DNA of 64,000 nt from assembly GCA_003451585.1 (NCBI GenBank), contig DMEU01000011.1, forward strand, positions 29,493-93,492, written 5' to 3'. The position numbers and the translations under genes are program-made. Numbering within the stretch: the stretch's first letter is position 1; every line of letters begins with the position of its first letter. Below are positions 27,384 to 46,913 of the stretch, one piece after another. The stretch is from Candidatus Omnitrophota bacterium (lineage in GTDB: Bacteria; Omnitrophota; Gorgyraeia; Velamenicoccales; Velamenicoccaceae). The notes beneath the pieces are model-generated. The model worked only from the letters and a program-made list of their open reading frames with translations, did no database searches and had not been told where the DNA came from.

Positions 27384-27887
27384 ATGCTAAATTTCGCAAA
27401 TATTCTAAAAAAAATAATTTTTTTGTGTTTTCTTATTTTTATAACTAGCTTGGCTGTGGCTGAAGATGCCAGCGTAACGCTTCCAGGAGACGGTAAGGCC
27501 GTTGCAGAAGCACCTGTTACGGAGGCTCGGGAGGAGGCACAGGATGAAGACAGAATGGATTTCAGGGATCCTTTTAAGACTTGGCTGCCTTCAAAAAAAG
27601 ACAGGGATGTTGTTATTGACAGGTTTGAAGATGGATATGGCGAACCTGCCGGAGATCAAGGCGGAGAAGAATTTGATTATTCCGGCCTGGATGTTACCGG
27701 TATAGTTTGGGGGGAGGCAATGCCAAAAGCTATAATCAATGATGAGGTGTACGGCATAGGAGACCAGGTGAACGAGGCCACCATAATGAATATTAATAAA
27801 GACGGGATCCTGCTAAAATTCAAAGATAAGGAGTATCTGATGAAGAGAGGAAAAGAGAATATTTCAGAAAAAGGAGGGGGAATATGA
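27384..27887 (+). CDS. PilP/GspC-like periplasmic protein
   Basis: Signal peptide and an acidic linker. The C-terminal GIVWGEAMPKAIINDEVYGIGDQVNEATIMNINKDGILL resembles the PilP/GspC HR domain. Confidence 0.45.
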   Translation: MLNFANILKKIIFLCFLIFITSLAVAEDASVTLPGDGKAVAEAPVTEAREEAQDEDRMDFRDPFKTWLPSKKDRDVVIDRFEDGYGEPAGDQGGEEFDYSGLDVTGIVWGEAMPKAIINDEVYGIGDQVNEATIMNINKDGILLKFKDKEYLMKRGKENISEKGGGI

Positions 27888-29398: not shown

Positions 29399-29432
29399 CG
29401 GCAAACAAGAACTTTAATGTCTTGAGTATATT

Positions 29433-32389: not shown

Positions 32390-32418
32390 TTGACTTAACT
32401 AATGTAATATGATATATT
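32390..32418 (+). promoter_or_regulatory. sigma70-type promoter for the major pilin gene
   Basis: TTGACT (32390-32395), 17-nt spacer, TATATT (32413-32418), then a ~95-nt leader ending in an AAGGAGGGGG Shine-Dalgarno sequence. Confidence 0.6.
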
Positions 32419-32517
32419 TATAATAAAGGAGGTGGTGTTTTAATTATTGAGGCATCATATTAAAATATATAAATAAGAGTAAGAAAAAATAAAACAACCA
32501 ATAATAAGGAGGGGGAA

Positions 32518-32922
32518 ATGAGAAATAAGAAAGGTTTCACGCTGCTTGAACTTATTATCGTGGTAATCGTAATAGGTATCTTAGCTTCCATCGCTCTGCC
32601 TAGGTATTTGAAGATCGCGGAAAAAGGCAGGGTCGCGGAAGGTAAGTCCCTTTTGGGCGCCATCAGGAGCGCGCAGATGAGGTATTCCGCAGAAAAAGGC
32701 GCGTTCGCAACTACTACAGGTGACTTGGATTTGAACATGCAGACGGCAAGGTATTTTACCATGTCAGTTCCTAGCTCTGGCGGTTCAGTATCTGTTGAGA
32801 CGACCGTTGTTGCAACAGCCACAAGAAACACCGTTGATAACCCTTCGCCGGGATGTATATATAATATCACCCAGGCAGGTGTTATGTCGAACAACACAGC
32901 CGCTTGCGGAGGCTTTTTATAA
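32518..32922 (+). CDS. type IV pilin (probable major pilin), prepilin-type N-terminal methylation domain
   Basis: MRNKKG|FTLLELIIVVIVIGILASIALPRY class III signal with Glu+5, two C-terminal Cys, and its own promoter and terminator. Confidence 0.88.
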   Translation: MRNKKGFTLLELIIVVIVIGILASIALPRYLKIAEKGRVAEGKSLLGAIRSAQMRYSAEKGAFATTTGDLDLNMQTARYFTMSVPSSGGSVSVETTVVATATRNTVDNPSPGCIYNITQAGVMSNNTAACGGFL

Positions 32923-32941
32923 TTTTTCGCAAGAATACTAT

Positions 32942-32997
32942 TGCCCTGGCAAGCGCCTTTTGAATACATTCAGGTTTTTGCCAGGGCATTTTGGTTT
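32942..32997 (+). terminator. intrinsic terminator after the major pilin gene
   Basis: tgccctggcaa (32942-32952) pairs with ttgccagggca (32978-32988), followed by ttttggttt. Confidence 0.65.
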
Positions 32998-33009
32998 GTG
33001 TAGAATCTT

Positions 33010-34005
33010 ATGATAAGGTTAGCATGCGTCTTGACGACTGAATGCAATTTGAGGTGCTTGCATTGTTTAAGGGACAATGCAGCAGCGAGTCATTTGCCGC
33101 TTGAGATCGTAAGCAAGGCTGTGGCAGGGGCAAAAAAATTTGATCTAGAGTATGTTCATTTGACCGGCGGAGAGCCTTTTCTGTATCATCATTTGCCGGA
33201 ACTTTTTGAATTACTCAAACAGAGTAATGTCCAGGCGACTTTTTCATCTAATGGCCTGCTCTTTGAAAAAAGATCCGAACTGATAACTAAATATAAAAAA
33301 GTCATCAGATTCATTAATATAAGCCTTGACGGTCCTTGTGCGGATATCCATGATGCCACCAGAGGAAAAGGGGCTTTTGGCGCGCTCATGGAGTCTTTTA
33401 AATTTTCAAGAGCGCATAAACTCCCTTTTGGCGTTACCTGTTGTTTAAACAGGTTCAATCTCAGCCACGCGCCGGACATCGTCAAATTCGCCAGGCGGCA
33501 AGGCGCTAAACACATTAATTTTTCTACCGTCCTGCCCTGCAGGAATGCCGAAGAGAACGGCCTTGTCTTAGATGAGGCCCAGAGGAAAAAGGCGTATGGT
33601 GAATTGCGACGTCTAGCCTATGTCTCTTCCATGGATTTTTTCAGGTTATTTTATGTGCCTGTCTTTATAAGCGAGCCCGTGTACGCTTCAAGCAATATAG
33701 TCATGTGCGCCAATCAGTCGTTGCGTACGGTGACTGTCGATGTGGATGGAAGCCTGCACTTTTGTTGTTTTCTTACTGTTTATGACGTGGACAAGGAAGT
33801 TGAAAAAGGGTTGAAGGTAGCAAATCTTTGCGATGTTGATTTTGAAGAAGGGCTTAAATGTTTCGCGGATATGATACATAGTTTTATCCGCGGGCGGATG
33901 GATGATTATCAAGGCGGTTCTTTTGATAAACAGGGTATGGATTTTAACAGCTGTTTTTATTGCAATAAAAAATTGGGCATAGCCTTAAAGGTAGGGCCGT
34001 TATGA
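33010..34005 (+). CDS. radical SAM enzyme with SPASM/twitch-like C-terminal Cys-rich domain
   Basis: C12-x3-C16-x2-C19 (CNLRCLHC), GGEP motif, C-terminal C-x13-G-x4-C (CANQ...DGSLHFC) and a CxxC (CFYC). The stop overlaps the start of the next pilin (ATGA). Confidence 0.85.
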   Translation: MIRLACVLTTECNLRCLHCLRDNAAASHLPLEIVSKAVAGAKKFDLEYVHLTGGEPFLYHHLPELFELLKQSNVQATFSSNGLLFEKRSELITKYKKVIRFINISLDGPCADIHDATRGKGAFGALMESFKFSRAHKLPFGVTCCLNRFNLSHAPDIVKFARRQGAKHINFSTVLPCRNAEENGLVLDEAQRKKAYGELRRLAYVSSMDFFRLFYVPVFISEPVYASSNIVMCANQSLRTVTVDVDGSLHFCCFLTVYDVDKEVEKGLKVANLCDVDFEEGLKCFADMIHSFIRGRMDDYQGGSFDKQGMDFNSCFYCNKKLGIALKVGPL

Positions 34006-34400
34006 ACAAAAAGGGTTTTTCTCTGATCGAGGTCATAGTGGTCGTGATCATCATTGGCATCCTGGCAAGGATAAGCATACCTCGTTATATCCGCCTGGTC
34101 GAGAAAGGCAGGTCAGCGGAGGCGCGTAATATTTTAGGGCATATACGTTCGGCACAAATGGCTTATCAGCTTGAGAATGGTTATTATACCAATACCCTTG
34201 GTAATTTACAGGTTGCGGCACCTACGGCTTGTAACGCGACTTTTTATTTTAGTTACGCGTTGGCGAACGGCAGCGGGACTTTTACGGCTACAGCAAACAG
34301 GTGTACTGGGGGTGCAGGGAAATCACCCACTGGTTCGGCAGCATTCAGCTTATCTATTAACCAGGGCGGGACGCTAAGCGGTACGGCCGGTTATCTGTGA
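34002..34400 (+). CDS. type IV pilin paralog
   Basis: MNKKG|FSLIEVIVVVIIIGILARISIPRY. It is a paralog of the pilin at 32518 through the alpha-1 helix and has two Cys (C-x23-C). Confidence 0.88.
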   Translation: MNKKGFSLIEVIVVVIIIGILARISIPRYIRLVEKGRSAEARNILGHIRSAQMAYQLENGYYTNTLGNLQVAAPTACNATFYFSYALANGSGTFTATANRCTGGAGKSPTGSAAFSLSINQGGTLSGTAGYL

Positions 34401-34406
34401 GGTTTC

Positions 34407-34817
34407 ATGAAGAAACTAATTCGCGCGATAGATGATCTTTCGGGTTTTACCCTGATCGAATTGGTTGTGGTGGTCATTATTATGAGCATCCTTGTCGCGT
34501 TAGCCGTACCGACTTATACCAATACCAAGGAGAAGGCGTTGGATAAAGAGGCTGTAATGGCGTTAAAGCTTATACGGTCTGCCAGTAAACAGTACTTTGC
34601 GAAATTTGAGCATTTTTATCCATATACCGGCTCAATCACTTCTTTGTCTAATATAAATAACAACCTTAGCCTGGATCTGAGCGGCTCGAATTGGGGGTTT
34701 GCTCTTAGCGGCACAGGAACGGCCTTTACGGCGAACGCAACCAGGACAGGCAGTACAAGAAGGTGGACAATAAATCAGGCCGCGTCGGAGCCGTCGTGTG
34801 TTACAGCCTGTCTGTGA
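34407..34817 (+). CDS. type IV pilin-like protein
   Basis: ...DDLSG|FTLIELVVVVIIMSILVALAVPTY, with a C-terminal CVTAC. Confidence 0.85.
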   Translation: MKKLIRAIDDLSGFTLIELVVVVIIMSILVALAVPTYTNTKEKALDKEAVMALKLIRSASKQYFAKFEHFYPYTGSITSLSNINNNLSLDLSGSNWGFALSGTGTAFTANATRTGSTRRWTINQAASEPSCVTACL

Positions 34818-34831
34818 TCTCTAAAGATGAT

Positions 34832-35206
34832 ATGAGAACCAGAGGTTTTACTTTGGTTGAGGTAATGGTGGCCGCGATCATCCTGGCCCTTTTGGCAGCC
34901 GGGCTCTTTAGTGTTTTCGCTTCTGCCAGGAACCTGGTTTCCCGTTCTAAAAGAAGGCTTGTGGCAACTGAGATAGCTAAAGCCGAGATCGAGAAAAACA
35001 AGCAGCATATCAGGGCGGACAGATGGGATAATGTTTCATATCCTGCTGTTTATCCGGCTAATGGAGTCTGGCGTTCCTGCGCCTCGGCCGCGTATACATA
35101 CCAGGGCATTACTTATAATGTTGATTGCCGCGTAGACCCCGGTCCGACAGCCGATTCTTACAGAAAAGTAACTGTTCGCGTGAGGTGGAATGAACCTACG
35201 ATCTAG
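34832..35206 (+). CDS. minor pilin/pseudopilin (PilV/GspI-like)
   Basis: MRTRG|FTLVEVMVAAIILALLAAG. The in-frame ATG at 34832 gives a canonical prepilin leader; the ORF start at 34763 overlaps the previous gene. Confidence 0.8.
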   Translation: MRTRGFTLVEVMVAAIILALLAAGLFSVFASARNLVSRSKRRLVATEIAKAEIEKNKQHIRADRWDNVSYPAVYPANGVWRSCASAAYTYQGITYNVDCRVDPGPTADSYRKVTVRVRWNEPTI

Positions 35207-35723
35207 CAATGATGGTGTTACTTTAATAGAACTTATCCTTGCGATGGTCTTAGTCGGTGCCATCATCATGACCGGCCTGTCTATGGAGCTTGGCCTCAGG
35301 CGTATTTATTCATCGACTGATTTTGAAGTGCATTTGTTGGATGAGGCAGCTCCGATAATGGCGATGGTGACCAAGGATATAAACAGGGGCGTCGGAGCGG
35401 TAGCAACGGCTCAATCCCCGTTTAGCGGGACTTATAGGATATATTATGATTCCAATTTTAACGGTATGCGGGATGCGGCAGATACTGCTGTTGAGTATCA
35501 GTATAATAGCGCCACATATAATCTTAATTACAGGCGCACTTTGAGCGGGCCGTGGCAGCTTTTATCGGATAAGGTCACCAGTTTTAGCATAGCTGCTCCG
35601 GTCAACGGCGTTTCCACATTTTCTATCAGCCTTAAAAGATCCCCGTCTTTAGGCACAGGTTATACTAATCCGCAGATAGCCGTAACTTCAAGCGCGCAGT
35701 ACAGGGGATATTCTATAAATTGA
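35190..35723 (+). CDS. minor pilin/pseudopilin (PilW/GspJ-like)
   Basis: ...SNDG|VTLIELILAMVLVGAIIMTG prepilin-type N-terminus. Confidence 0.75.
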   Translation: MNLRSSNDGVTLIELILAMVLVGAIIMTGLSMELGLRRIYSSTDFEVHLLDEAAPIMAMVTKDINRGVGAVATAQSPFSGTYRIYYDSNFNGMRDAADTAVEYQYNSATYNLNYRRTLSGPWQLLSDKVTSFSIAAPVNGVSTFSISLKRSPSLGTGYTNPQIAVTSSAQYRGYSIN

Positions 35724-40249: not shown

Positions 40250-41701
40250 ATGACCGTTTCCGCAAAAAAAGCCTTTTTCGCCTTTTTATTATTTGCGTCT
40301 CCTTTTTTCTTTTCCTTGTCTCTTCCTTTATCGGCTTTCGCAGTATTTAATTTGACAGCTGCCCCTGAAAGCGGCGGTTTTGACTTGCGTTTTACGCGCG
40401 TATCGCCAGGTGATTTTAAGCAGGCCAGGGAGGTAACTTTAAGGATCAACTCCGATATAGGTAAGCAATACCGCGTTGTACAGCAATTGATCAAGCCTCT
40501 ATCTATGATGGATGGTACACAAATACCGGATGGGCAGTTTAAGATGTATCCTTTGGTCAACTCCAATAGCCAGGGTACCTTGCTCTACCGCGAAGAAACA
40601 CCGGTGAGTTCTTATAACACCGTGCTTTATACCTCTAACCCTGCAGGAAGCAATGATTCGTTCAAACTGGTCTATACTATAATACCTTTTGAAACACAGA
40701 TCCCCGGCTCTTATCACGGCCGCATATCTTACATATTGCAGCCGATCGATTCAACCGAATCCCAGGTCGTCGTCACATTAAATATCTACGTCGATATGGC
40801 CGCAGGCACAACCCCCGTAATTGAGGTGACGGCCAGTTCTGTTTCAGGACGGATCAGCTTAACGTCGGAGGGGATGACCCCTAAGGATCCTTTTGGGCCC
40901 AAGGAGAATCCCAGGGTATCTATAAAAGTCCATTCTCCTATGGGTGCCACGTATCGTATATATCAGGGGTTGCAGAGTAATGCTGTTGTTTCCGGCAGCG
41001 GTGATGAGTTCGATCTCTCTAAGATATCGTTTACTGTTGACGGCGGCAATAACGGTGTCGCGGCCAGGCAGGGAGACCTGAAAGGGGCTCAAGTAAGGCA
41101 GCTTTTGTATACATCTGATGGATTTGGGGCGCCGGATGAATTTGTGGTCACATATAAGCCATCAAAGGATTTCCGTCTGCAAAAAGCGGATCTCTACAGG
41201 GGAAGGCTTGTTTTTACTGTGGAGAAGGCCACTGACGCGGCTCCGCTGTCTATTAAAACACTGGACATGGAAGTGGATATCGAGCCGGTCTTTGATATCC
41301 ACGTCTACTCAGGCGGGAAGGAAGGCGTCTTTCTAAGATTTGGAGAGATAAGCTATAAGACCGGCCCTAAGTCATCCGATGTTGAGGTCTTCGTAGAGTC
41401 GAACATGGGCAGGCCTTATCAGGTGGTCCAAAAGGTGTCAGGGCCTATGATGAACGAGGCCGCCGATAAGATACCGGAGGAGGATTTTGTTGTCAGGGTC
41501 AAGGACGTGGATCACCAGCAAGAGGCCGGTTTTAGTTTAAAAGATGAGGCGCGCGTAACTGAAGGCGATACTGTGATATTTGCCTCAGGGCCTAAAGGGC
41601 ATAGCGCCAGTTTTACCGCTGAATATAAGCTGACATTGCGGCCGGATTCAAAACCCGGGAATTATTCTACGCAGATAGGTTATTCCTTAGCTTTGAATTA
41701 A
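40250..41701 (+). CDS. secreted protein made of three tandem ~150-aa beta-rich domains (fimbrial-subunit-like)
   Basis: Signal peptide ...LSAFA. Each domain repeats the motifs G.xYR/QVVQ, LLYTS / VLYTS / VIFAS and a terminal G.Y.G.I.Y.L strand. Confidence 0.7.
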   Translation: MTVSAKKAFFAFLLFASPFFFSLSLPLSAFAVFNLTAAPESGGFDLRFTRVSPGDFKQAREVTLRINSDIGKQYRVVQQLIKPLSMMDGTQIPDGQFKMYPLVNSNSQGTLLYREETPVSSYNTVLYTSNPAGSNDSFKLVYTIIPFETQIPGSYHGRISYILQPIDSTESQVVVTLNIYVDMAAGTTPVIEVTASSVSGRISLTSEGMTPKDPFGPKENPRVSIKVHSPMGATYRIYQGLQSNAVVSGSGDEFDLSKISFTVDGGNNGVAARQGDLKGAQVRQLLYTSDGFGAPDEFVVTYKPSKDFRLQKADLYRGRLVFTVEKATDAAPLSIKTLDMEVDIEPVFDIHVYSGGKEGVFLRFGEISYKTGPKSSDVEVFVESNMGRPYQVVQKVSGPMMNEAADKIPEEDFVVRVKDVDHQQEAGFSLKDEARVTEGDTVIFASGPKGHSASFTAEYKLTLRPDSKPGNYSTQIGYSLALN

Positions 41702-41728
41702 AAATTAAAAAGAAGGGGGGTGAATATA

Positions 41729-42466
41729 ATGAGAAAAAGACTATTAGTGTGGGCAGTCGTGTGCGCGTTGGCTGGGCTTGATATGGCTCCGGTGTATGCG
41801 CAGACATCTGCTACTGGTCCAAGTGGTGCGGCATCGGCTACTGTGCCTCAGGTTTTAGAATTCACATTGAGCCGTGTCGTGAGAATGAATTCAGCGGCTG
41901 GAGATACCAATCCCTTTACTCAGGGTACGGTATTGACGTCGCCTTCATTTAATTTCGGCACTTTGGCTCGCGTGAATGATGCCGAGGGTAACTTCTTATA
42001 CATGCGCGGTGAATACTACTACTATATTCTAATGATCGCGGCTACATCAGGCCGTAGATATAAGATAACCGAAACCGGCACTCAGTTGACCGGACCAGGA
42101 GGCGTGTTATTGCCGAAGGAGTCTGTGTTATTGGTCCCTGATTATCAGTGGTTGGATACATTGGGTACTGTGGCGCAGGGAGCTCCTCCAGGGAACGCGT
42201 CGGTAGGCCCGGTTGCATCCGCTTCTAATACCGGATCACTCGTTTATCAGAGTGATACCGCTGGTTTAGGCAGGCTGGTGAGGTCAGTGATCGCGATCAG
42301 CGGTCCTGGCGCAGGTTCTGCTTATCCTTCTAACTACAGCCTTGGTTTTAACGGGGCTGTCGGGCAGGGGGCAAAGCAGGAATATACAGCTTGGAAGGCT
42401 ATAACTCCTGATCAACCGTCAGGCGCGTATAGCGGCACCATAACGTTTACTTTGGTATTGAATTAA
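41729..42466 (+). CDS. secreted single-domain paralog of the 40250 protein (fimbrial-subunit-like)
   Basis: Signal peptide ...APVYA. Motifs FNFGTL, RRYKITE and SLVYQSD, with C-terminal PSGAYSGTITFTLVLN matching PGNYSTQIGYSLALN. ATG at 41729 after AAGGGGGG. Confidence 0.7.
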   Translation: MRKRLLVWAVVCALAGLDMAPVYAQTSATGPSGAASATVPQVLEFTLSRVVRMNSAAGDTNPFTQGTVLTSPSFNFGTLARVNDAEGNFLYMRGEYYYYILMIAATSGRRYKITETGTQLTGPGGVLLPKESVLLVPDYQWLDTLGTVAQGAPPGNASVGPVASASNTGSLVYQSDTAGLGRLVRSVIAISGPGAGSAYPSNYSLGFNGAVGQGAKQEYTAWKAITPDQPSGAYSGTITFTLVLN

Positions 42467-42475
42467 TGTAGACGG

Positions 42476-42523
42476 TTTTTTTGGCAGCAGCTTCGTCTTT
42501 TGGCGAGGCTGCTGCCAAAAAAG
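42476..42523. other. strong stem-loop between the subunit and chaperone-like genes
   Basis: ggcagcagcttcg pairs with cgaggctgctgcc (13 bp, one G.U). A T7 run lies 5' and an A6 run 3' of the stem. Confidence 0.75.
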
Positions 42524-42531
42524 GAAAACAT

Positions 42532-43383
42532 ATGAATATTAAAAAAATCTATAGTTGTCTGGTACTATCCGTACTCATAAATATATTTTTTACTACATTT
42601 TCTTGGGCAGGGCTACGCATTGATAAGCCAAAGGTCCGGCTCAATATCGCACCTGCGAGCTATGACAGCGGAGAGGTAAAAGTCGAAAATACCGGCGGAG
42701 AGGTTTTAAGCGTTAAGGTGTATCTTGAAGATTGGGTATATGCACAGCAGGATGGCGGGAAGACCTTTGCCCCTAAGGGGACCAATGCTTTATCTTGTTC
42801 GGATTGGATAACCTTTTATCCGGCAGATTTTACTTTGGCGGCCAATGATTCGCGGATAGTGCGTTATACGGTAAAAGTCCCAAAGGATGCGCGGGGCGGG
42901 CATTATTCGGTAATGTTCTTTGAGACCGGTGGTGAGGATATCGAAACGCCGAATGAGGAAGGGACGACTGTGCGTATAAAGGTATTGAACCGGCTTGGAG
43001 CCCTCTTTTATATAGAGCCGGAAGGCACTATCAAGAAGGCCGCAGAATTGAAAAATCTTGGACTAATACATAAACTCAACGATCTGATTGTATCCGCCGA
43101 TCTTGTCAATTCGGGGAATACGGATATAACGGCCGGCGGAACGTTCAATATAATAGATAAGGAAGGTTTTGTATATGCGCGCGGCGCGTTCGACGAAGTA
43201 TATACTTTGCCCGGCGATAAAGCGGCGCTTCGTTCCGTGGCCGCATCTACGAGTTTAAAACCCGGCACTTATGATATCCTTATAACATTGGATTTTCAGA
43301 ATGGCGGTACGCTTGTGCATGAATCCCAGTTCGATATCTCCGCAGACGGCGCTATCTCCCTATCGGCAGTGCAAGCACAATAA
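42532..43383 (+). CDS. periplasmic two-domain Ig-like protein, PapD-like chaperone candidate
   Basis: Signal peptide. First domain pattern: VRLNI..ASYDSGEVKVENTGGEVLSVKVYLEDW ... FTLAANDSRIVRYTVKVPKDARGGHYSVMFFET. A second beta domain follows. ATG at 42532. Confidence 0.5.
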   Translation: MNIKKIYSCLVLSVLINIFFTTFSWAGLRIDKPKVRLNIAPASYDSGEVKVENTGGEVLSVKVYLEDWVYAQQDGGKTFAPKGTNALSCSDWITFYPADFTLAANDSRIVRYTVKVPKDARGGHYSVMFFETGGEDIETPNEEGTTVRIKVLNRLGALFYIEPEGTIKKAAELKNLGLIHKLNDLIVSADLVNSGNTDITAGGTFNIIDKEGFVYARGAFDEVYTLPGDKAALRSVAASTSLKPGTYDILITLDFQNGGTLVHESQFDISADGAISLSAVQAQ

Positions 43384-43418
43384 TAGCTTAATTGATGTAA
43401 GGAAAAAAATAGGAGCGT

Positions 43419-46301
43419 ATGTTGGGATTTTATAAAAAAATTTTAGTGACTTATTTAATCTTTTTAATAAGTTTCAATATTATTTTTCCGCCGGACGTAT
43501 GTTATGCATCGGTCTCTCCGCAGATAGGAGATTTTTTTTGCCAGAGGGGTATATCCTATTTTGATCAGGGCAAGTATCCTCAGGCAAGCGTAGAGTTTAA
43601 AAAGGCGCTTCTGGCCAATCCGGAATCCGCAATCGCAAAAAAATATATTTTGTTGATCGAAGGCGGGCCTGCGGCCGTACAAAATGATCAGATGTCCGTC
43701 CTGGGCAGGAAAATCTCCGAAGTAAATTCCGCCTTGAGCCAGCATGAATTCATCTCAGACCAGATATCCGTTTTCGCTATGCCGCAACAGGATGGAGATA
43801 GCACGTCTGTGTTTGAATTTCAGGAAGAGGTCGCGTTAAAAAGATCTCAAAGCAAAAAGAAACAAGCTTATAAAGAGATCATGCGCCAGCCTGCAGGAGA
43901 GGCCTTGCCGCAGGAAAAGGTAGTTGTCGATATAAATATTAAAGACGAAGGCAGGGATTTCCTGGAGGTAGGGACGAATGTGGGCGAACACCTTATTCTA
44001 AAAGGCAGGAATATCTCGAGGTTCCTTATTACCGATCCCGGTCTTATAAAAGTTTCTTTGGATGGTAATTCTGCTGTTTTGGCCCAGCTTTTGGAACCCG
44101 GCACCACCTATATCCATATTTGGGATGAAGGGCAGCGCAAGACCTTAAAATTCATGATAGGCCAGAGGAAGCTCGATCAACAGTATTTAGAGGCCCAAAA
44201 GGAGAAGGCGTTAAAGGCCAGCCTTCCTGAGCCATTTAAGGTCAGTTATTCGATAGAAGGGGATTCTTTTATGTCCGGCAGGGGGTTCGGCGACCTTGAG
44301 CGGAAAAATTATACCATCAACTATAGTTCATCAATTATCGGAGAGACGCCATACGGTAACTTCGATACATCTGTGCAGGCGGACCGCACTCAGTCAAAAA
44401 AATACCATGTCTCGAACCTGCGTATGGGCCTGACAGGCGCGCATTATGACGAGTTCAAGGATATCAATCTGCGGTTTTTTGATTTCACCCCGGCTATAAC
44501 TAATTTTGGTTTCCCTACATCTGATCTCCGCGGCGTGATGATGGATGCCCCGATGTTTGAAAAACGCGTTAATTACACGGCTTTTTGGGGCGCGATCCCG
44601 TTCGGTGATTTTACAAGGCTTTCTTCGACCTCCGGCCTTGACAGGACGAAGGAGGCGTGGCTCGAAGGTATATCCGTTAATTACAAGCCGTTGGATTTTG
44701 CCAATTTCAAGGCGTTCTACGCGCACTCGTATGGCCCGGAGAGGACACAGCCTGTTTTAACCGACGAGGTCAGGGGTTTTGGCATGGATTATAATCTTGG
44801 AAGGTTTAACATCAGTTCCGAGATGGTGCAGGATCCGGACAATATCTCATATACCGCCAATTCTAGCGTTACATTTTCAAAACTCCGCATTGGCCTGACC
44901 ATGACAGAGAATAATAAGGACTTCGCTTCCGTCTTGGGCGGCATACCTTCAAGCGGCTCGACGAGCGGTACGTTGACTACGACTTACAGGCCGGCACAGG
45001 ATGTCACCATATCGAATACTTTTTCCGGCACACGCGATAAGGTCTTTGGTAACCCGGATAGGCCGGCCAGGCCGAATTACAATTCGGATACACGCCTGAA
45101 TTGGGTGATCGACCCGCATACTGAATTTGAAATGTCCTATGGGCTGGATGATCAGATAGGCTCGAATTCTCCGGCGGTCACAGAGACCAAGGAAGTTACC
45201 CTGCGCAAGAAGCTGTTTTTCTTAAAAAAACTTAACACATTCGTGAGTTATCAGAACAGAAAGACAAAGAATTATACATCTCCTGCCCAGGATTTTAATA
45301 ATAATCGTATATTGGCCGGGCTTAGTTTCAGGGTGGTCAGCGAACTATACGCTTACTGGCGCAGGGAATTCAATATGCTGCATAATAAATTTTCAAATGA
45401 AGATGCCTTCCCTACGGCACAGGAAATAGGCCTCAATTTTTACAAGCAGATATTCGATACGCCTTTTTACCTGAATTCCAGGCTCTATTACCGCGACGAG
45501 GAAAATACGGAGTCTACTTTGAGTTTTTTGAGCGGCGAGGACCGCTTGGAGGGCGAGAGCGAGTTGACATTTAAGCCGAACCCGGATACCGAGACATTCC
45601 TTAAGGTCAGGCTGTCGAATATATGGGCTGAAAAAGCAGGTGTTGCCAAGCACCTGGATTTTGATTTTACTTTTGGCGTAAGGTTGGTTTGGGACACCGG
45701 CCTGCGCTGGCGATCCGTTGGAGGTTTTTACGGATATTGTTTCTATGATATTAACGCCGACGGTAAAAAGCAGCCGGATGAACACGGAGTAAAGGGGGTC
45801 GGGATCATCGGCCCTGCAGGCAAGCAGGTTGTTACGGATGAAAGGGGATATTACAAGATCCCTTCGGTTACAGGGAAGAAGGCCCTTTTAGAGATGAGTG
45901 TCAATACATTGCCTAAGGGGTATAATCCGACTACCTCAGTTTCACGTGAGGTGGATATAGTGCACGGGAAGGCCAAAAGAGTGGATTTCGGGATTGCCAC
46001 AAGGTCTGAGATCTCAGGGCTCATCTATTATGACAAAAACGCCAACGGACAGTATGATTCCGGGGATGAACCGGTCAAGGGTGTTGTGATCACACTTGAT
46101 GATAAGGAAAGAGCGGCGAGCAGCATAATGGGCGAATATATGTTTAGAAAGCTCTCGCCCGGTGAACATACCTTGAGGCTCGACCTAAAGTCCATCCCTG
46201 TAGAGTTTATCCCTAAGGTAGCGGTTGCGAAGTCATTGAAGGTCATCGAAGGCACGACCTTTGTTTATAATATACCGTTAGAAAAAGCGGCGGAAAAGTA
46301 A
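43419..46301 (+). CDS. 960-aa outer-membrane protein: TPR + CpaC-type pilus N-terminal domain + putative beta-barrel + two SdrD-B-like domains
   Basis: The signal/anchor is followed by a TPR segment, then LEVGTNVGEHLILKGRNISRFLITDPGLIKV...GTTYIHIWDEG (secretin-N 'pilus formation' pattern). A long alternating beta-strand region rich in Y/F-x-N/S/T comes next. The C-terminus has YYDxNxNGxxDxxExxxxGV repeats. Confidence 0.55.
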   Translation: MLGFYKKILVTYLIFLISFNIIFPPDVCYASVSPQIGDFFCQRGISYFDQGKYPQASVEFKKALLANPESAIAKKYILLIEGGPAAVQNDQMSVLGRKISEVNSALSQHEFISDQISVFAMPQQDGDSTSVFEFQEEVALKRSQSKKKQAYKEIMRQPAGEALPQEKVVVDINIKDEGRDFLEVGTNVGEHLILKGRNISRFLITDPGLIKVSLDGNSAVLAQLLEPGTTYIHIWDEGQRKTLKFMIGQRKLDQQYLEAQKEKALKASLPEPFKVSYSIEGDSFMSGRGFGDLERKNYTINYSSSIIGETPYGNFDTSVQADRTQSKKYHVSNLRMGLTGAHYDEFKDINLRFFDFTPAITNFGFPTSDLRGVMMDAPMFEKRVNYTAFWGAIPFGDFTRLSSTSGLDRTKEAWLEGISVNYKPLDFANFKAFYAHSYGPERTQPVLTDEVRGFGMDYNLGRFNISSEMVQDPDNISYTANSSVTFSKLRIGLTMTENNKDFASVLGGIPSSGSTSGTLTTTYRPAQDVTISNTFSGTRDKVFGNPDRPARPNYNSDTRLNWVIDPHTEFEMSYGLDDQIGSNSPAVTETKEVTLRKKLFFLKKLNTFVSYQNRKTKNYTSPAQDFNNNRILAGLSFRVVSELYAYWRREFNMLHNKFSNEDAFPTAQEIGLNFYKQIFDTPFYLNSRLYYRDEENTESTLSFLSGEDRLEGESELTFKPNPDTETFLKVRLSNIWAEKAGVAKHLDFDFTFGVRLVWDTGLRWRSVGGFYGYCFYDINADGKKQPDEHGVKGVGIIGPAGKQVVTDERGYYKIPSVTGKKALLEMSVNTLPKGYNPTTSVSREVDIVHGKAKRVDFGIATRSEISGLIYYDKNANGQYDSGDEPVKGVVITLDDKERAASSIMGEYMFRKLSPGEHTLRLDLKSIPVEFIPKVAVAKSLKVIEGTTFVYNIPLEKAAEK

Positions 46302-46308
46302 TGGCGGC

Positions 46309-46626
46309 CTATCTTGCGCAGACGGTGTAAATGGTAGTTTTTTGTTCGTCAGTCGTATTTTCTGCTAAGACCATATTCTCTTGGCTAGTGATGAGTTTTT
46401 GTTCTTCCTGGATGTCATAATCGCCGGATGCGCCCATGGCCACAGGGGCCTGTGGAGTTTGTGGCGTGTTTGTGGTAGCAGGCGCCTGAGCCCTGATTTC
46501 CAATAACTGCGGCATGATACAGCTGGCAGTCCCGCTGATAGTCGTCCCCCCAGCCAGACATACATTGACCGGAATAACACAGACCAGGGTCAACAGTGAT
46601 ATTAAGGTAGGTCTCTTTGCCTTCAT
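46309..46626 (-). CDS. small secreted protein under c-di-GMP riboswitch control
   Basis: The only convincing minus-strand ORF. Signal peptide MKAKRPTLISLLTLVCVIPVNVCLA, GAGGG Shine-Dalgarno sequence 5 nt upstream, and location directly downstream of the riboswitch/terminator. Confidence 0.7.
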   Translation of the reverse strand: MKAKRPTLISLLTLVCVIPVNVCLAGGTTISGTASCIMPQLLEIRAQAPATTNTPQTPQAPVAMGASGDYDIQEEQKLITSQENMVLAENTTDEQKTTIYTVCAR

Positions 46627-46650
46627 TTAGCCCTCGGTATTTACAGGGCA

Positions 46651-46681
46651 AATAAAAAACCCATTCAAAGAATGAATGGGT
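46651..46681 (-). terminator. intrinsic terminator forming the riboswitch expression platform
   Basis: On the minus strand: ACCCAUUCA-UUCUU-UGAAUGGGU followed by UUUUUUAUU. The upstream AUUCAAAG can alternatively pair with CUUUGAAU as an anti-terminator. Confidence 0.75.
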
Positions 46682-46714
46682 CCTTTGAATTGACGAGATC
46701 CGGCTTAAATAAGC

Positions 46715-46810
46715 GGATACGGCAGCCCGACCATCCGCCGCTAAAACTCTGGCGGATTCGAGGCTTTGCGTCCTACCCTTTCGGATAGTTTGCCCTTTTG
46801 TTCCTAAAGA
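46715..46810 (-). promoter_or_regulatory. c-di-GMP-I (GEMM-I) riboswitch aptamer
   Basis: The minus strand reads AAGGGCAAAC-UAUCC-GAAA-GGGUAG-GACGCAAAGCC-UCGAAUCCGCC...GGCGGAU-GGUCGGGCUGCC. This matches the conserved GGCAAAC / GNRA hairpin / GACGCAAAGCC core and the P2 helix of GEMM-I (compare V. cholerae Vc2). Confidence 0.85.
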
Positions 46811-46830
46811 ACGGCCTTGGTTACAGGTAA

Positions 46831-46859
46831 AATATATCATATGAAAATCATGTTTTCAA
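46831..46859 (-). promoter_or_regulatory. sigma70-type promoter for the riboswitch transcript
   Basis: Minus strand: TTGAAA, 17-nt spacer, TATATT, ending about 20 nt upstream of the aptamer. Confidence 0.6.
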
Positions 46860-46884: not shown

Positions 46885-46913
46885 TTGACGAACAGTTCCC
46901 GAGGATGTATAAT
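46885..46913 (+). promoter_or_regulatory. recA promoter
   Basis: TTGACG (46885-46890), 17-nt spacer, TATAAT (46908-46913). It is divergent from the riboswitch promoter. Confidence 0.7.

What the first reader, a model, noticed from the sequence alone, without database searches (positions are those of the whole stretch)
46302..46859. A c-di-GMP-I riboswitch drives a small secreted protein that shares an N-terminal motif with the fimbrial-like subunit and converges on that cluster
This is the only minus-strand unit in 64 kb. It runs TTGAAA-17-TATATT promoter, GEMM-I aptamer (GGGCAAAC / GAAA hairpin / GACGCAAAGCC / 7-bp AUCCGCC:GGCGGAU helix), terminator with a competing anti-terminator (AUUCAAAG vs CUUUGAAU), Shine-Dalgarno sequence, then a 105-aa signal-peptide protein.

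Right after its signal peptide, the protein reads SGTASCIMPQLLEI. The 245-aa subunit reads SGAASATVPQVLEF at the equivalent position. The shared SG-x-AS-x-x-x-PQ-x-LE motif could be an N-terminal donor or docking strand.

The ORF stops 7 nt from the stop of the 960-aa gene with no terminator in between. Riboswitch-controlled transcription should therefore run antisense into the 3' end of the fibre cluster.

This links c-di-GMP to the cluster either through an extra subunit, cap or inhibitor, or through antisense interference.
Basis: partly seen in the sequence, partly recalled or inferred. Interest (0 to 1): 0.7.

Follow-up and report, generated by a model that had tools for sequence, protein, structure and literature searches.

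The report
c-di-GMP riboswitch controlling pilus-accessory peptide
A genuine c-di-GMP-sensing RNA switch sits in front of a small secreted protein that is always found tail-to-tail with an uncharacterised pilus-like gene cluster in Omnitrophota bacteria. The protein copies the first ~20 residues of the cluster's fibre subunit, so the second messenger probably tunes fibre assembly through this mini-protein.

Summary
Rfam places a c-di-GMP-I-clan aptamer at 46803..46717 (minus strand) at 64.9 bits, above threshold. It has the canonical ligand-contact bases. The best-scoring model is the '-GGC' variant, but the base that defines that variant is absent. A promoter, an intrinsic terminator, a Shine-Dalgarno site and a 105-aa signal-peptide ORF follow.

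The ORF is not an orphan. An exhaustive search found 34 homologues of about 100 aa. In all 13 other Omnitrophota loci I recovered, the gene lies between the 960-aa gene (convergent) and recA. Where the leader is held, 12 of 13 carry a riboswitch hit.

The shared N-terminal motif holds at the level of family profiles (hhalign E 2.8e-6, or 4e-4 without signal peptides).

The cluster's 300-aa protein folds like a PapD/EcpB pilus chaperone, so the 'fibre cluster' reading is supported.

- The 7-nt convergent junction is not conserved. Most relatives have 51-370 nt with hairpins there, so antisense run-in is not the general mechanism.
- The leader holds an unreported element (46652..46645) that pairs, with covariation, to the aptamer's 5' strand and also matches the Shine-Dalgarno site. 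This predicts translational repression by c-di-GMP.

What the protein does remains inferred.

The parts
46831..46859 (-). Sigma-70-type promoter: TTGAAA, 17-nt spacer, TATATT, with an extended -10 TG at 46839-46838
   Evidence: Consensus scan. CCCCTTGAAAA-N17-TATGnTATATT was found by pattern search in 13 of 14 orthologous leaders.
46806..46812 (-). 5' leader box GUUCUUU. It is complementary both to the aptamer's AAAGGGC and to AAAGGAC at the foot of the terminator.
   Evidence: G[U/A]UCUUU is present in all 14 leaders. RNAfold pairs it with the aptamer's 5' strand in 8 of 14 ligand-free folds.
46717..46803 (-). c-di-GMP-I-clan aptamer. G46794 corresponds to Vc2 G20, A46767 to A47, and GCC 46723-46721 holds the C92 equivalent.
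   Evidence: RF03167 at 64.9 bits against a gathering score of 59, with a second clan member also above threshold. Orthologues reach RF01051 scores of 38-83 bits. The G-to-A spacing of 27 nt matches Vc2, Vc1 and Bc1.
46698..46718 (-). Hairpin H3 directly after the aptamer. Its sequence varies between loci but its structure is kept.
   Evidence: RNAalifold columns 170-175 pair with 216-221, with changes on both sides in 5 of 6 pairs.
46683..46690 (-). AUUCAAAG, the candidate anti-terminator strand. It pairs with CUUUGAAU at 46670-46663.
   Evidence: 87.9% of cells are pairable across 14 leaders, but covariation does not exceed the shuffles. The terminator loop bases CUUU are unusually conserved.
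46650..46681 (-). Intrinsic terminator: 9-bp stem ACCCAUUCA/UGAAUGGGU, 5-nt loop, then U6AUUU
   Evidence: Read from the sequence and present in the minimum-free-energy fold. It is invariant in 14 leaders. The scan listed only the plus-strand reading of this palindromic hairpin.
46645..46652 (-). Distal box UUUGCCCU (UUGCCCUUU in relatives). It is complementary to the aptamer's 5' strand AGGGCAAA and to the Shine-Dalgarno region, so it is a candidate anti-Shine-Dalgarno element.
   Evidence: RNAalifold pairs it with the aptamer strand. Flank covariation: 19 cells changed on both sides against 7.1 +/- 2.2 in shuffles, with 0 of 500 shuffles reaching the observed value. Cognate versus non-cognate permutation: 0 of 20000. 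Predicted duplex with the Shine-Dalgarno region is -10.6 to -20.7 kcal/mol in the 7 leaders scored.
46631..46635 (-). Shine-Dalgarno sequence GAGGG, 4 nt before the ATG
   Evidence: Read from the sequence. A purine-rich GGG box lies at the same position in all leaders.
46309..46626 (-). Gene for the 105-aa secreted protein. Residues 1-26 form the signal peptide, residues 28-43 hold the conserved TTISGTASC-MP---E motif, then come a Pro/Thr/Ala linker, GASG-Y[ED]VQ, and VYTVCA[KR] at the C-terminus.
   Evidence: ORF list. 34 homologues at E <= 1e-3, nearly all of about 90-120 aa. Alignment A2. C36 is present in 31 of 34 and C103 in 26 of 34.
46495..46536 (-). Codons for SGTASCIMPQLLEI (residues 31-44), the motif shared with the 248-aa subunit
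   Evidence: hhalign of the two families: E 2.8e-6 with signal peptides and E 4.1e-4 for mature parts only, aligning residues 1-25 of both mature proteins.
46302..46308 (.). 7-nt junction between the convergent stop codons of the small gene and the 960-aa gene
   Evidence: The tight junction is not conserved: it is 1 nt in L004 and L018, and 42-370 nt in the others.
40250..41701 (+). 483-aa secreted protein, a candidate multi-domain subunit or tip protein
   Evidence: It shares the extreme C-terminal motif with the 248-aa subunit. It has a sub-threshold hit to the NCBIfam Pam-pilin C-terminal domain, 20.1 bits against a cut-off of 55.
41720..42466 (+). 248-aa subunit (245 aa from the ATG). Its N-terminal motif GPSG-A-A-VP--LEF is encoded at 41822-41863.
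   Evidence: 63 homologues; every one that carries an organism name is Omnitrophota/Omnitrophica, except two records labelled Deltaproteobacteria. The motif is conserved in alignment A1. The AlphaFold2 model is a beta-sandwich with pLDDT 86.6 and no significant PDB match.
42481..43383 (+). 300-aa periplasmic chaperone-like protein
   Evidence: Profile hit to EcpB at E 0.0026. JGI names several homologues 'P pilus assembly chaperone PapD'. AlphaFold2 pLDDT is 89.6. Foldseek matches WxLIP at 2.6e-12, then YadV, CupB2, CfaA, Caf1M, EcpB, FimC and CsuC at about 1e-9 to 1e-8.
43419..46301 (+). 960-aa protein: N-terminal TPR, a weak T2SS-T3SS_pil_N match, a long central region without a family match, and C-terminal SdrD_B domains. 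It is a candidate outer-membrane assembly component.
   Evidence: Pfam. There is no Usher family hit. Its position is conserved in all loci.

Best explanation
This is a canonical c-di-GMP-I riboswitch in the 5' leader of a monocistronic gene. The gene encodes a secreted mini-protein of about 80 residues once mature. That protein is a dedicated, conserved accessory of a chaperone-assisted, pilus-like fibre system in Omnitrophota.

**RNA.** The leader carries three related purine boxes: AAAGGGCAA in the aptamer (it includes the ligand-contacting G), AAAGGAC at the foot of the terminator, and AGAGGGCAA at the Shine-Dalgarno site. It also carries complementary pyrimidine boxes: GUUCUUU in the 5' leader and UUGCCCUUU just upstream of the Shine-Dalgarno site.
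- Without ligand, the distal UUGCCCUUU box pairs with the aptamer's 5' strand, and the ribosome-binding site stays accessible.
- With c-di-GMP bound, the aptamer strand is locked. The distal box is then free to pair with the Shine-Dalgarno site, so translation falls.
- An intrinsic terminator between the aptamer and this box adds a transcriptional checkpoint, probably acting in the same direction.

My committed reading is that c-di-GMP turns the gene OFF.

**Protein.** After signal-peptide removal, the first ~20 residues (TTISGTASC-MP-LLE) mimic the mature N-terminus of the 248-aa fibre subunit (TS--GPSG-A-A-VP--LEF). I infer that the mini-protein occupies the site that normally receives the subunit's N-terminal strand. 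That site could be the acceptor groove of the last subunit, the chaperone, or the outer-membrane component. Because the mini-protein has no subunit body of its own, it would cap or block fibre growth when c-di-GMP is low. High c-di-GMP would remove it and permit fibre assembly.

**What is shown and what is inferred.**
- Shown computationally: aptamer identity and binding-site bases; the conserved leader anatomy; the covarying long-range helix; the conserved gene family and synteny; profile-level motif similarity; the chaperone fold of the 300-aa protein.
- Inferred: ligand binding, the direction of regulation, and the cap/decoy role.
For: **Aptamer**
- Rfam hit above the gathering score in the window and in 12 of 13 relatives whose leader is held. 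The thirteenth, L009, shows the same aptamer interrupted by an insertion of about 70 nt.
- G46794, A46767 and the GCC at 46723-46721 correspond to Vc2 G20, A47 and C92. The G-to-A spacing of 27 nt is the same as in Vc2, Vc1 and Bc1. All 14 aptamers keep GCAAA.

**Leader**
- Promoter, GWUCUUU box, aptamer, covarying hairpin H3, CUCGUCAAUUCAAAG, terminator, distal box and Shine-Dalgarno site are conserved.
- The long-range helix between the aptamer's 5' strand and the distal box is 78% paired against 71.1 +/- 1.5% in shuffles. It has 19 doubly changed cells against 7.1, and 0 of 500 shuffles reach the observed covariation score. Sliding the partner by one column drops pairing to 49-57%.
- Cognate flanks pair better than any of 20000 permutations.
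- The distal box is also complementary to the Shine-Dalgarno region, at -10.6 to -20.7 kcal/mol in the 7 leaders scored.
- Blocking the aptamer strand lowers the predicted Shine-Dalgarno accessibility in 10 of 14 leaders.

**Gene**
- 34 homologues, nearly all of about 90-120 aa, with conserved motifs.
- The position between the 960-aa gene and recA is the same in all 14 loci.

**Motif**
- hhalign E 2.8e-6 with signal peptides and 4.1e-4 for mature parts only. The match sits at the extreme mature N-terminus of both families.
- G36, L46, E47 and F48 are invariant or nearly invariant in the subunit family. G32, C36 and P39 are so in the small family.

**Cluster type**
- PapD/EcpB-like chaperone by profile and by fold.

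**Precedent**
- In the Pam pili of CPR bacteria, a non-pilin protein (PamR) with an extra N-terminal strand is predicted to end donor-strand-exchange fibres.
Against: - No ligand-binding or expression data exist.
- Thermodynamic folding does not show a clear ligand-dependent change at the terminator. The Shine-Dalgarno site is predicted to be largely paired in both states in several leaders. The OFF direction therefore rests mainly on the logic of which strands are complementary.
- In the window itself the distal box is short, giving an 8-bp helix, and it lacks the GCGUCC extension seen in relatives.
- The subunit model has no significant structural relative (best Foldseek E 0.16). Whether it has an incomplete fold that accepts a donor strand is unknown.
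- The 960-aa protein has no Usher family hit.
- The motif is short. C36 of the small protein replaces an Ala of the subunit motif and may be disulfide-bonded to C103 (26 of 34 sequences). That could prevent simple strand donation.
- The pairwise motif similarity alone is weak (E 0.046).
Confidence: 0.55

Rival explanations
1. The riboswitch and gene are the same, but the polarity and role are reversed. c-di-GMP turns the gene ON, by ligand-stabilised closure of the aptamer competing with the foot of the terminator. The mini-protein is then a positive factor: a nucleator, adaptor or cell-surface anchor that starts or tethers the fibre, as TapA does for TasA, CsgB for curli, or PapH/PamR as anchors.
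For: - c-di-GMP usually promotes adhesins and pili; this rests on established knowledge. Vc1-gbpA is an ON example.
- The 5' box GUUCUUU can pair with AAAGGAC, which overlaps the lowest base pairs of the terminator stem. A ligand-stabilised P1-like helix could therefore weaken termination.
- PamR is predicted to anchor fibres through an N-terminal strand.
Against: - The only helix with covariation support, aptamer 5' strand with the distal box, excludes ligand binding. It releases an element complementary to the Shine-Dalgarno site, which predicts OFF.
- The GUUCUUU:AAAGGAC pairing shows no compensatory change: the pair is U.G in some leaders and A.A in others.
- In constrained folds it forms in only 2 of 14 leaders.
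Confidence: 0.25
2. The shared N-terminal motif is not a donor strand. It is a common export or targeting tag read by the cluster's chaperone or outer-membrane component, as the N-terminal 22 residues of CsgA are read by the curli channel. On this view the mini-protein is simply another secreted substrate, such as a matrix, signalling or surface-coating peptide, whose supply is set by c-di-GMP.
For: - The motif lies at the very start of both mature proteins.
- The 483-aa protein of the same cluster lacks the motif.
- The rest of the mini-protein is a low-complexity, acidic linker with its own conserved motifs (GASG-YEVQKEEK, VYTVCAK) that are unrelated to the subunit.
Against: - No evidence identifies the 960-aa protein as a secretion channel for such a tag.
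- A PapD-like chaperone argues for strand-complementation chemistry.
- The motif runs into the first predicted beta-strand of the subunit, which starts at E47.
Confidence: 0.2
3. The main output is RNA. Riboswitch-gated transcription runs across the 7-nt junction into the 3' end of the 960-aa gene and represses the fibre operon by antisense pairing or transcriptional collision. The ORF is secondary.
For: - No minus-strand terminator lies beyond the ORF in the window.
- Junctions are only 1 nt in L004 and L018, and 42 nt without a stable hairpin in L012.
- c-di-GMP riboswitches are the class most enriched in antisense arrangements (PMC9943018).
Against: - Ten of 14 loci have 51-370 nt between the genes. 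All fold into stable hairpins, and several are followed by T runs, for example L009, L013, L014 and L016.
- The ORF is conserved as a protein, with signal peptide, motifs and a Shine-Dalgarno site.
- The leader holds an element complementary to the Shine-Dalgarno site, which has a role only if translation matters.
Confidence: 0.08
4. The aptamer is a specificity variant (Rfam c-di-GMP-I-GGC) or a degenerate relic. It would then sense something other than c-di-GMP, or nothing.
For: - The best-scoring Rfam model in the window and in L002, L006, L007 and L012 is RF03167.
- The window's P3 lacks the tetraloop-receptor motif present in L004 and L018.
- Some validated-looking c-di-GMP-I elements respond poorly in vivo (Bc1).
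Against: - The defining G of the -GGC variant (GCGAAG) is A in the window and in all 14 orthologues (GCAAAG). G20 and the C92 equivalents are canonical.
- Orthologous aptamers score up to 83 bits on RF01051.
- Strong purifying selection on the aptamer core across relatives whose small proteins are only 35-50% identical argues for function.
Confidence: 0.07

Closest known systems
c-di-GMP-I (GEMM-I) riboswitches upstream of adhesin and pilus genes. Examples: Vibrio cholerae Vc1-gbpA (PMC4744006); Bacillus thuringiensis Bc2-collagen adhesin and Clostridioides difficile pilA1 (both from my own knowledge).
   Same: Same aptamer class and the same ligand-contact bases. It sits in a 5' UTR and is tied to a cell-surface fibre or adhesion function.
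   Different: Here the regulated gene is not the adhesin or pilin itself. It is a ~100-aa accessory protein transcribed towards the fibre operon. The host phylum is Omnitrophota. The predicted polarity is OFF.
Bc1, a c-di-GMP-I riboswitch with a long expression platform and dual transcription-translation control (PMC11218506)
   Same: A long platform (about 90 nt here, up to about 240 nt in relatives) holds both an intrinsic terminator and structures that involve the ribosome-binding site.
   Different: Bc1 has two terminators, and its dual effects oppose each other. Here there is one terminator plus a distal box shared between the aptamer strand and the Shine-Dalgarno site. The predicted effects are coherent but untested.
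Rfam RF03167, the c-di-GMP-I-GGC variant
   Same: It is the highest-scoring covariance model for the window, and the overall architecture is the same.
   Different: The base that gives the variant its name (G in GCGAAG, at the Vc2 A47 position) is A here. The window is therefore not a member of the variant by its defining feature.
Chaperone-usher pili, especially the alternate ECP system (EcpA/EcpB), and their chain terminators PapH and FimI
   Same: The cluster has a two-Ig-domain PapD-like chaperone by fold and a weak EcpB profile match. It has secreted beta-sandwich subunits sharing terminal motifs, and a large envelope protein encoded after the chaperone. The idea of a dedicated protein that ends fibre growth is shared.
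   Different: There is no recognisable Usher domain. The subunit has no PDB relative. PapH and FimI are full pilin domains delivered by the chaperone, whereas the mini-protein carries only the N-terminal motif.
Pam pili of CPR bacteria (bioRxiv 10.64898/2026.03.03.709456)
   Same: Donor-strand-exchange fibres in an uncultured, host-associated lineage with PapD/FimC-like chaperones. PamR, a non-pilin protein, is predicted to insert an N-terminal strand into the last pilin and so terminate and anchor the fibre. The 483-aa protein has a weak hit to the Pam pilin C-terminal domain.
   Different: The hit is below threshold (20.1 bits against 55). Pam chaperones are membrane-anchored, and Pam systems have no outer-membrane partner. 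No riboswitch is reported for them.
Antisense-acting riboswitches (PMC9943018)
   Same: A c-di-GMP riboswitch oriented towards the 3' end of a convergent gene, within 500 nt of it.
   Different: A conserved protein-coding gene lies between the riboswitch and the convergent gene. Most relatives place hairpin-forming spacers between the two genes.

Membership tests
c-di-GMP-I riboswitch (GEMM-I; Rfam clan CL00126, RF01051) | Covariance-model score at or above the curated gathering score | tested here: met
   In the window, RF03167 scores 64.9 against 59, and one further clan member also passes its own threshold but is hidden. The RF01051 score for the window itself is not shown by the tool. Orthologues score 83.1, 80.9, 66.6, 61.1, 50.8, 42.2, 42.0 and 38.3 bits on RF01051 against a gathering score of 35.
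c-di-GMP-I riboswitch (GEMM-I; Rfam clan CL00126, RF01051) | Two hairpins flanking the conserved junction GGGCAAAC...GACGCAAAGC...GCUGCC, with the first hairpin capped by GNRA | tested here: met
   Read from the sequence and folded. In the first hairpin, one base pair switches A-U to G-C in 3 of 7 leaders. The tetraloop receptor in the second hairpin is absent in the window but present in L004 and L018. It is not required for class membership.
c-di-GMP-I riboswitch (GEMM-I; Rfam clan CL00126, RF01051) | Ligand-contact bases equivalent to Vc2 G20, A47 and C92 | tested here: met
   G46794, A46767 (27 nt apart, as in Vc2, Vc1 and Bc1) and GCC at 46723-46721. The same bases occur in all 14 orthologues.
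c-di-GMP-I riboswitch (GEMM-I; Rfam clan CL00126, RF01051) | Selective binding of c-di-GMP and a ligand-dependent change in expression | not testable with these tools
   This needs in-line probing or ITC, plus termination and translation assays.
c-di-GMP-I-GGC variant (RF03167) | G instead of A at the intercalating position (GACGCGAAGCC in the model consensus) | tested here: not met
   The window has GACGCAAAGCC, and the cmscan alignment shows a mismatch at that column. All orthologues have A. I therefore do not file it under this variant despite the top score.
Chaperone-usher pilus systems | Periplasmic two-domain PapD-like chaperone | tested here: met
   The 300-aa protein has an AlphaFold2 pLDDT of 89.6. 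Foldseek gives probability 1.00 to YadV, CupB2, CfaA, Caf1M, EcpB, FimC and CsuC, at E about 1e-9 to 1e-8. Its family profile hits EcpB at E 0.0026.
Chaperone-usher pilus systems | Outer-membrane usher (Pfam Usher family, with plug and N/C domains) | tested here: not met
   The 960-aa protein has no Usher hit. Only TPR, a weak T2SS-T3SS_pil_N match and SdrD_B were found.
Chaperone-usher pilus systems | Subunits with an incomplete Ig-like fold completed by a donated N-terminal strand | tested here: inconclusive
   The 248-aa subunit model is a confident beta-sandwich (pLDDT 86.6). It has no significant PDB match: EcpA and TasA appear only at E > 0.2. No multimer modelling was available.
Pam pilus system (NCBIfam NF058581, CPR_Pam_pilin_C) | Score at or above the curated cut-off for the Pam pilin C-terminal domain | tested here: not met
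   The 483-aa protein scores 20.1 bits against a cut-off of 55 (E 5.4e-4), and the 248-aa subunit has no hit. This is a lead only.
Pilus chain terminators and anchors (PapH, FimI) | A complete pilin domain that binds the chaperone, plus an N-terminal extension | tested here: not met
   The mature mini-protein has about 80 residues, mostly low-complexity linker. It has no Pfam or NCBIfam hit and aligns with the subunit only over the first ~22 mature residues. It may work like these proteins but is not a member.

The most novel reading that the evidence does not exclude
The mini-protein is a natural 'donor-strand decoy'. It would be a secreted peptide-like protein made of little more than the fibre subunit's N-terminal strand, often stapled by a disulfide to its own C-terminal strand. 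It would cap growing fibres or saturate the chaperone-subunit complex of a previously undescribed chaperone-dependent, usher-less pilus system of Omnitrophota. A dual-acting c-di-GMP OFF riboswitch would remove it when the cell commits to attachment. That would be a new way of coupling a second messenger to pilus polymerisation, by controlling a chain terminator rather than the pilin, the motor or transcription of the operon.
Probability: 0.25. Interest if true: 0.75.

Novelty: new member of a known kind. Interest (0 to 1): 0.5.

Why it matters
Omnitrophota are uncultured, often host-attached nanobacteria whose surface structures are essentially unknown. This locus gives three things:

- **A handle on c-di-GMP signalling in the phylum.** The riboswitch is conserved and easy to test in vitro.
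- **A pilus-like system to characterise.** The cluster has four conserved genes, including a PapD-like chaperone. It lacks a recognisable usher, and its subunits have no structural relatives.
- **A concrete mechanistic hypothesis.** Fibre growth may be set by a riboswitch-controlled mini-protein that mimics the subunit's N-terminal strand.

If the decoy or terminator idea holds, it would be a new regulatory principle for donor-strand-exchange fibres and a natural template for peptide inhibitors of pilus assembly. If it does not hold, the finding is still a clean, well-conserved new regulon member for a known riboswitch class.

Tried and rejected
- **Word-index protein search with the 105-aa protein.** It found only itself, as a 68-aa gene call. 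'Orphan ORF' was rejected after the exhaustive search found 34 homologues.
- **The search for related loci with the full family alignment.** It failed for lack of a conserved stretch. A 10-sequence sub-alignment worked but gave only 3 + 4 loci. Further loci came from subunit homologues. L010 and L015 were truncated, and L011 was a solitary paralogue.
- **Filing under the -GGC variant.** Rejected on the defining base.
- **Reading the original variant-riboswitch paper.** It is not held. The mapping of G20, A47 and C92 was taken from PMC4744006 and PMC11218506 instead.
- **Structural identification of the 248-aa subunit.** No significant PDB match.
- **Anti-terminator covariation.** None beyond shuffles.
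- **A local P1 helix from the aptamer's immediate flanks.** Not conserved.
- **Thermodynamic prediction of ON or OFF at the terminator.** Constrained folds were not decisive.
- **The minus-strand ORF at 32460-32969 as a second minus-strand gene.** Rejected; it is the shadow of a plus-strand prepilin gene.
- **Lipoprotein reading of the signal peptide.** Rejected; the Cys in VCLAG is not conserved (14 of 34) and there is no lipobox.
- **Not obtained.** The explicit RF01051 score for the window (clan competition hides it), any model of the mini-protein or the 960-aa protein, and any complex model (prediction cap reached).


Full report
**Origin of the window**

The 248-aa subunit is identical to a protein of a 'Candidatus Omnitrophica bacterium' MAG (locus tag DCL35_03810). 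A JGI metagenome contig is base-for-base identical to the window over 20.2 kb. All related sequences that carry an organism name come from Omnitrophota, including Ca. Velamenicoccus archaeovorus; two records are labelled Deltaproteobacteria.

**Checking the observation**

On the minus strand I read, in order:
- TTGAAA (46859-46854), a 17-nt spacer and TATATT (46836-46831) with an extended -10 TG
- a conserved GUUCUUU box (46812-46806)
- the aptamer (46803-46717)
- a hairpin (46718-46698)
- AUUCAAAG (46690-46683)
- a 9-bp terminator stem with U6AUUU (46681-46650)
- UUUGCCCU (46652-46645)
- GAGGG (46635-46631)
- ATG at 46626, opening a 105-aa ORF that ends at 46309, 7 nt from the stop of the 960-aa gene

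Rfam at gathering thresholds gives RF03167 (c-di-GMP-I-GGC) at 64.9 bits against a threshold of 59, E 4.6e-13. A second member of the same clan also passes its own threshold but is hidden by the tool. The terminator scan listed this palindromic hairpin only for the plus strand. On the minus strand its stem can probably be extended through the A/U tracts, which would use up the T run. The hairpin followed by the U tract is plain in the sequence and in every fold.

Every other minus-strand ORF of 150 aa or more overlaps a longer plus-strand ORF. The apparent exception at 32460-32969 shadows a prepilin gene.

**Which riboswitch is it?**

The -GGC model consensus reads GACGCGAAGCC. The window reads GACGCAAAGCC, and cmscan marks that column as a mismatch.

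In Vc2 the ligand is contacted by G20, A47 and C92. The equivalents in Vc1 (G12, A39) and Bc1 (G11, A38) keep a 27-nt spacing between the G and the A (PMC4744006 and PMC11218506). In the window, the unpaired G before the GC pair is G46794, and 27 nt downstream lies A46767, the first A after GACGC. The 3' GCC is at 46723-46721. The binding site is therefore the canonical G-A-C, not the A-to-G variant and not the G20A cGAMP type.

Orthologous aptamers are called RF01051 in 8 loci (38-83 bits) and RF03167 in 4 loci. The higher RF01051 scores go with a tetraloop receptor in the second hairpin (L004, L018). The window lacks that receptor, and this, together with the -GGC model's outer helix, probably explains the model competition. 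I file the element as c-di-GMP-I, not as the variant.

**The gene is real and conserved**

The indexed protein search found only a 68-aa gene call of the same sequence, which starts at Met38 and so cuts the motif in half. The exhaustive search of 1.84 billion cluster representatives found 34 homologues at E <= 1e-3, nearly all of about 90-120 aa and most matching the query almost end to end.

The alignment shows:
- a signal peptide: a basic n-region, a hydrophobic core, and an A/G cleavage region
- AG-TTISGTASC-MP---E
- a Pro/Thr/Ala-rich linker
- AP---GASG-YEVQ-EE
- an acidic stretch, then VTVYTVCAK at the C-terminus

C36 is present in 31 of 34 sequences and C103 in 26 of 34. Several database gene calls extend upstream and translate the terminator hairpin (FEWVF). 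That was the first sign that the leader is conserved.

**Synteny**

I recovered 13 further loci:
- three species-representative MAGs
- four metagenome contigs
- seven loci reached through subunit homologues

In every one the order is Memo/AMMECR1, DsbD-like, RsmE, sometimes a radical-SAM gene, the 483-aa gene, the subunit, the chaperone-like gene and the 960-aa gene on one strand. The small gene then follows on the other strand, and recA-recX-alaS follow on the first strand (and the gene tables). This holds down to 53% subunit identity.

A riboswitch hit lies upstream of the small gene in 12 of the 13 loci whose leader is held. L008 is cut inside the small gene. In L009 the aptamer is visible but split by an insertion of about 70 nt after GGACG.

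**The junction**

The gap between the two convergent stop codons is 7 nt here, 1 nt in L004 and L018, and 42 nt without a stable hairpin in L012. In the other ten loci it is 51-370 nt. All of these fold into stable hairpins, and several are followed by T runs. Convergent overlap may matter in this genome, but it is not the conserved feature. The conserved features are the protein and its leader.

**Expression platform**

An alignment of 7 and then 14 leaders shows near-invariant blocks separated by variable hairpins. RNAalifold pairs the aptamer's 5' strand AAAGGGCAA with a distal UUGCCCUUU box lying 22-33 nt before the ATG in 12 of 14 leaders (48 and 84 nt in the other two).

The core of this helix is invariant, but the flanks differ between lineages and change together:
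- GAGAAGGGCAA with UUGCCCUUUUC (L004, L018)
- CUUAAAGGGCAA with UUGCCCUUUAAG (L009, L013, L014)
- AUUCAAAAGGGCAA with UUGCCCUUUUGAAU (L005)
- AAUUUCAAAGGGCAA with UUGCCCUUUGGAAUU (L003)

Counted on an anchored alignment:
- 78.1% of cells pair, against 71.1 +/- 1.5% in shuffles (0 of 500 reach the observed value).
- 19 cells carry changes on both sides, against 7.1 +/- 2.2 (0 of 500).
- Sliding the partner by one column drops pairing to 49-57%.

Cognate flanks pair over more contiguous bases than non-cognate ones in all 20000 permutations. After removing close relatives, 7 of 20000 permutations reach the observed value.

Two caveats apply. The sequences are related, and where several GCCC sites existed I chose the most complementary one.

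Most relatives also carry GCGUCC just upstream of the box, complementary to the aptamer's GGACGC. The same distal box is complementary to the Shine-Dalgarno region (AGAGGGCAA-like), with predicted duplexes of -10.6 to -20.7 kcal/mol in the 7 leaders scored.

This is a Shine-Dalgarno / anti-Shine-Dalgarno / anti-anti-Shine-Dalgarno arrangement in which the last element is the ligand-binding strand of the aptamer. Its logic gives translation ON without ligand and OFF with ligand. Partition-function folds agree only moderately. Blocking the aptamer strand lowers Shine-Dalgarno accessibility in 10 of 14 leaders, but the site is often predicted to be largely paired in both states.

**Terminator control**

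Covariation, however, does not exceed the shuffles (206 of 500). The full terminator is about 7 kcal/mol more stable. The anti-terminator could act only kinetically, because it can form before the last four bases of the terminator emerge.

The 5' GUUCUUU box can pair either with the aptamer's AAAGGGC or with AAAGGAC, which contains half of the anti-terminator strand. RNAfold makes the first pairing in 8 of 14 ligand-free folds. This allows a coherent OFF circuit:
1. Ligand binding frees GUUCUUU.
2. GUUCUUU captures the anti-terminator strand.
3. The terminator then forms.

The constrained folds reproduce this circuit in only 2 of 14 leaders. I regard the transcriptional direction as unresolved and the translational OFF logic as the better-supported part.

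**The motif**

Pairwise BLASTP gives only E 0.046. In the subunit family (32 aligned homologues), the mature N-terminus AQTS--GPSG-A-A-VP--LEFSL is among the most conserved segments. G36 and L46 are invariant, and V42, E47 and F48 are at least 90% conserved.

Profile-profile comparison of the two families gives probability 88%, E 2.8e-6 over 30 columns. With signal peptides removed it still gives E 4.1e-4 over 22 columns, aligning residues 1-25 of both mature proteins.

In the AlphaFold2 model of the subunit (pLDDT 86.6), the motif is an extended segment of pLDDT 85-89 that leads into the first strand, which begins at E47.

**What the cluster is**

None of the four cluster proteins has a Pfam match that identifies the system. 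The 960-aa protein hits only SdrD_B and TPR, and the 300-aa protein has one weak sub-threshold hit.

The 300-aa protein's family profile hits a single PDB sequence, the E. coli common-pilus chaperone EcpB, at E 0.0026. JGI labels several homologues 'P pilus assembly chaperone PapD'. Its AlphaFold2 model (pLDDT 89.6) matches WxLIP at E 2.6e-12. It then matches dozens of chaperone-usher chaperones at probability 1.00: YadV, CupB2, CfaA, Caf1M, EcpB, FimC, SafB, CsuC, DraB and FaeE.

The subunit has no significant structural relative. TasA and EcpA appear only among insignificant hits.

The 483-aa protein shares the subunit's extreme C-terminal motif. It also has a sub-threshold hit to the C-terminal domain of Pam pilins. 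Pam pili are donor-strand-exchange pili of CPR bacteria, for which a non-pilin protein with an extra N-terminal strand (PamR) is predicted to terminate and anchor the fibre.

The 960-aa protein has no Usher domain.

The system is thus chaperone-dependent and pilus-like, but it is not a demonstrable member of the classical chaperone-usher family.

**Proposed mechanism**

With a PapD-like chaperone in the cluster, strand complementation is the expected assembly chemistry. A secreted protein that carries the subunit's N-terminal segment but no subunit body could fill the site meant for the next subunit's strand and stop growth. Combined with the OFF logic of the leader, low c-di-GMP would give mini-protein and capped or blocked fibres, and high c-di-GMP would remove the mini-protein and allow fibres to grow.

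I put about 0.95 on a genuine c-di-GMP-I riboswitch and about 0.9 on it controlling this gene. I put about 0.55-0.6 on OFF rather than ON, and about 0.35 on the cap/decoy role specifically.

The rivals are:
- an ON switch driving a nucleator or anchor
- the motif acting as a shared export or targeting tag
- antisense RNA as the main output
- a variant or inactive aptamer

**Novelty and verdict**

The riboswitch class is known and is detected by Rfam. Regulation of surface-adhesion genes by this class is also known. New here are the phylum-wide association with an uncharacterised pilus-like cluster, the regulated mini-protein family with a subunit-mimicking N-terminus, and the covarying distal box.

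I found no paper in the library that links Omnitrophota with chaperone-usher systems. The few papers that mention both Omnitrophota and c-di-GMP appear to concern other topics.

I rate it as a new member of a known kind, of moderate interest. The untested cap/decoy reading would be clearly more interesting if it holds.

Noticed in passing
window 25221-35723 (+): A type IV pilus / T2SS-like gene set lies upstream: PilM, secretin, a T2SSE ATPase, T2SSF and several prepilin-like genes. The ATPase (29433-31145) carries an MshEN domain (E 1e-15). From my own knowledge, that domain binds c-di-GMP in other bacteria. The window may therefore hold a second, protein-based c-di-GMP input to surface fibres.
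   Followed up: partly
window 40250-46301 (+), and L002, L004, L008, L009, L012-L018: The four-gene cluster is conserved across Omnitrophota in a fixed core-genome neighbourhood (Memo-DsbD-RsmE upstream, recA-recX-alaS downstream). It comprises the 483-aa protein, the 248-aa subunit, the 300-aa PapD-like chaperone and the 960-aa TPR/SdrD_B protein. It looks like an undescribed chaperone-dependent fibre system without a recognisable usher.
   Followed up: partly
window 41513-41683 (residues 422-478 of the 483-aa protein): A weak, sub-threshold NCBIfam hit to CPR_Pam_pilin_C (20.1 bits against a cut-off of 55). The 483-aa and 248-aa proteins also end in the same motif, PD..G.YS..I.[FY][ST]L.LN.
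   Followed up: partly
L005:4283-4423, L009:15557-15380 (-), L013, L014, L016 leaders: Several orthologous aptamers carry extra hairpins of about 65-110 nt inserted between GGACG and CAAAGC, at the junction that holds the intercalating A. In L009 the insertion pushes the aptamer below every Rfam gathering score. Insertions at this position are unusual for GEMM-I.
   Followed up: partly
L002:10319-10588 and the L013 gap between the small gene and the 960-aa gene: The convergent intergenic gap of L002 holds five tandem copies of a 30-nt hairpin-forming repeat (ACAAAATCCGCCAAAGCATTAGTGGCGGAT). The L013 gap holds a duplicated element of about 115 nt. These may be REP-like or miniature mobile repeats.
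   Followed up: no
L005:3443-4162; L011:10001-10741: L005 has an extra paralogue of the 248-aa subunit (43% identity) between recA and the riboswitch promoter. Another genome has a solitary subunit paralogue far from any cluster, next to trehalose-synthesis genes.
   Followed up: no
window 46309-46626 (-) and homologues P0069, P0079, P0090, P0097: Automatic gene callers mis-start this gene. JGI aa from the internal Met38, which cuts the motif. Other records-191 aa by reading through the terminator, producing an artefactual FEWVF peptide.
   Followed up: yes
window 46885-46913 (+): The recA promoter-like site (TTGACG, 17-nt spacer, TATAAT; 11 of 12 positions) lies back to back with the riboswitch promoter, with the two -35 boxes 26 nt apart. 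The GGATGTATAAT segment is conserved in relatives. The two promoters might interfere with each other.
   Followed up: no
window 46247-46263 (+): A terminator-like hairpin followed by a T-rich tail lies inside the last ~50 nt of the 960-aa coding sequence, on the plus strand. Its significance is unknown and it may be a chance match.
   Followed up: no
window 42796-42798 (Cys106 of the 300-aa chaperone-like protein): The chaperone-like family has one largely conserved cysteine (23 of 32 sequences), and the mini-protein has a nearly invariant Cys36 inside the shared motif. An intermolecular disulfide between them is conceivable but untested.
   Followed up: no
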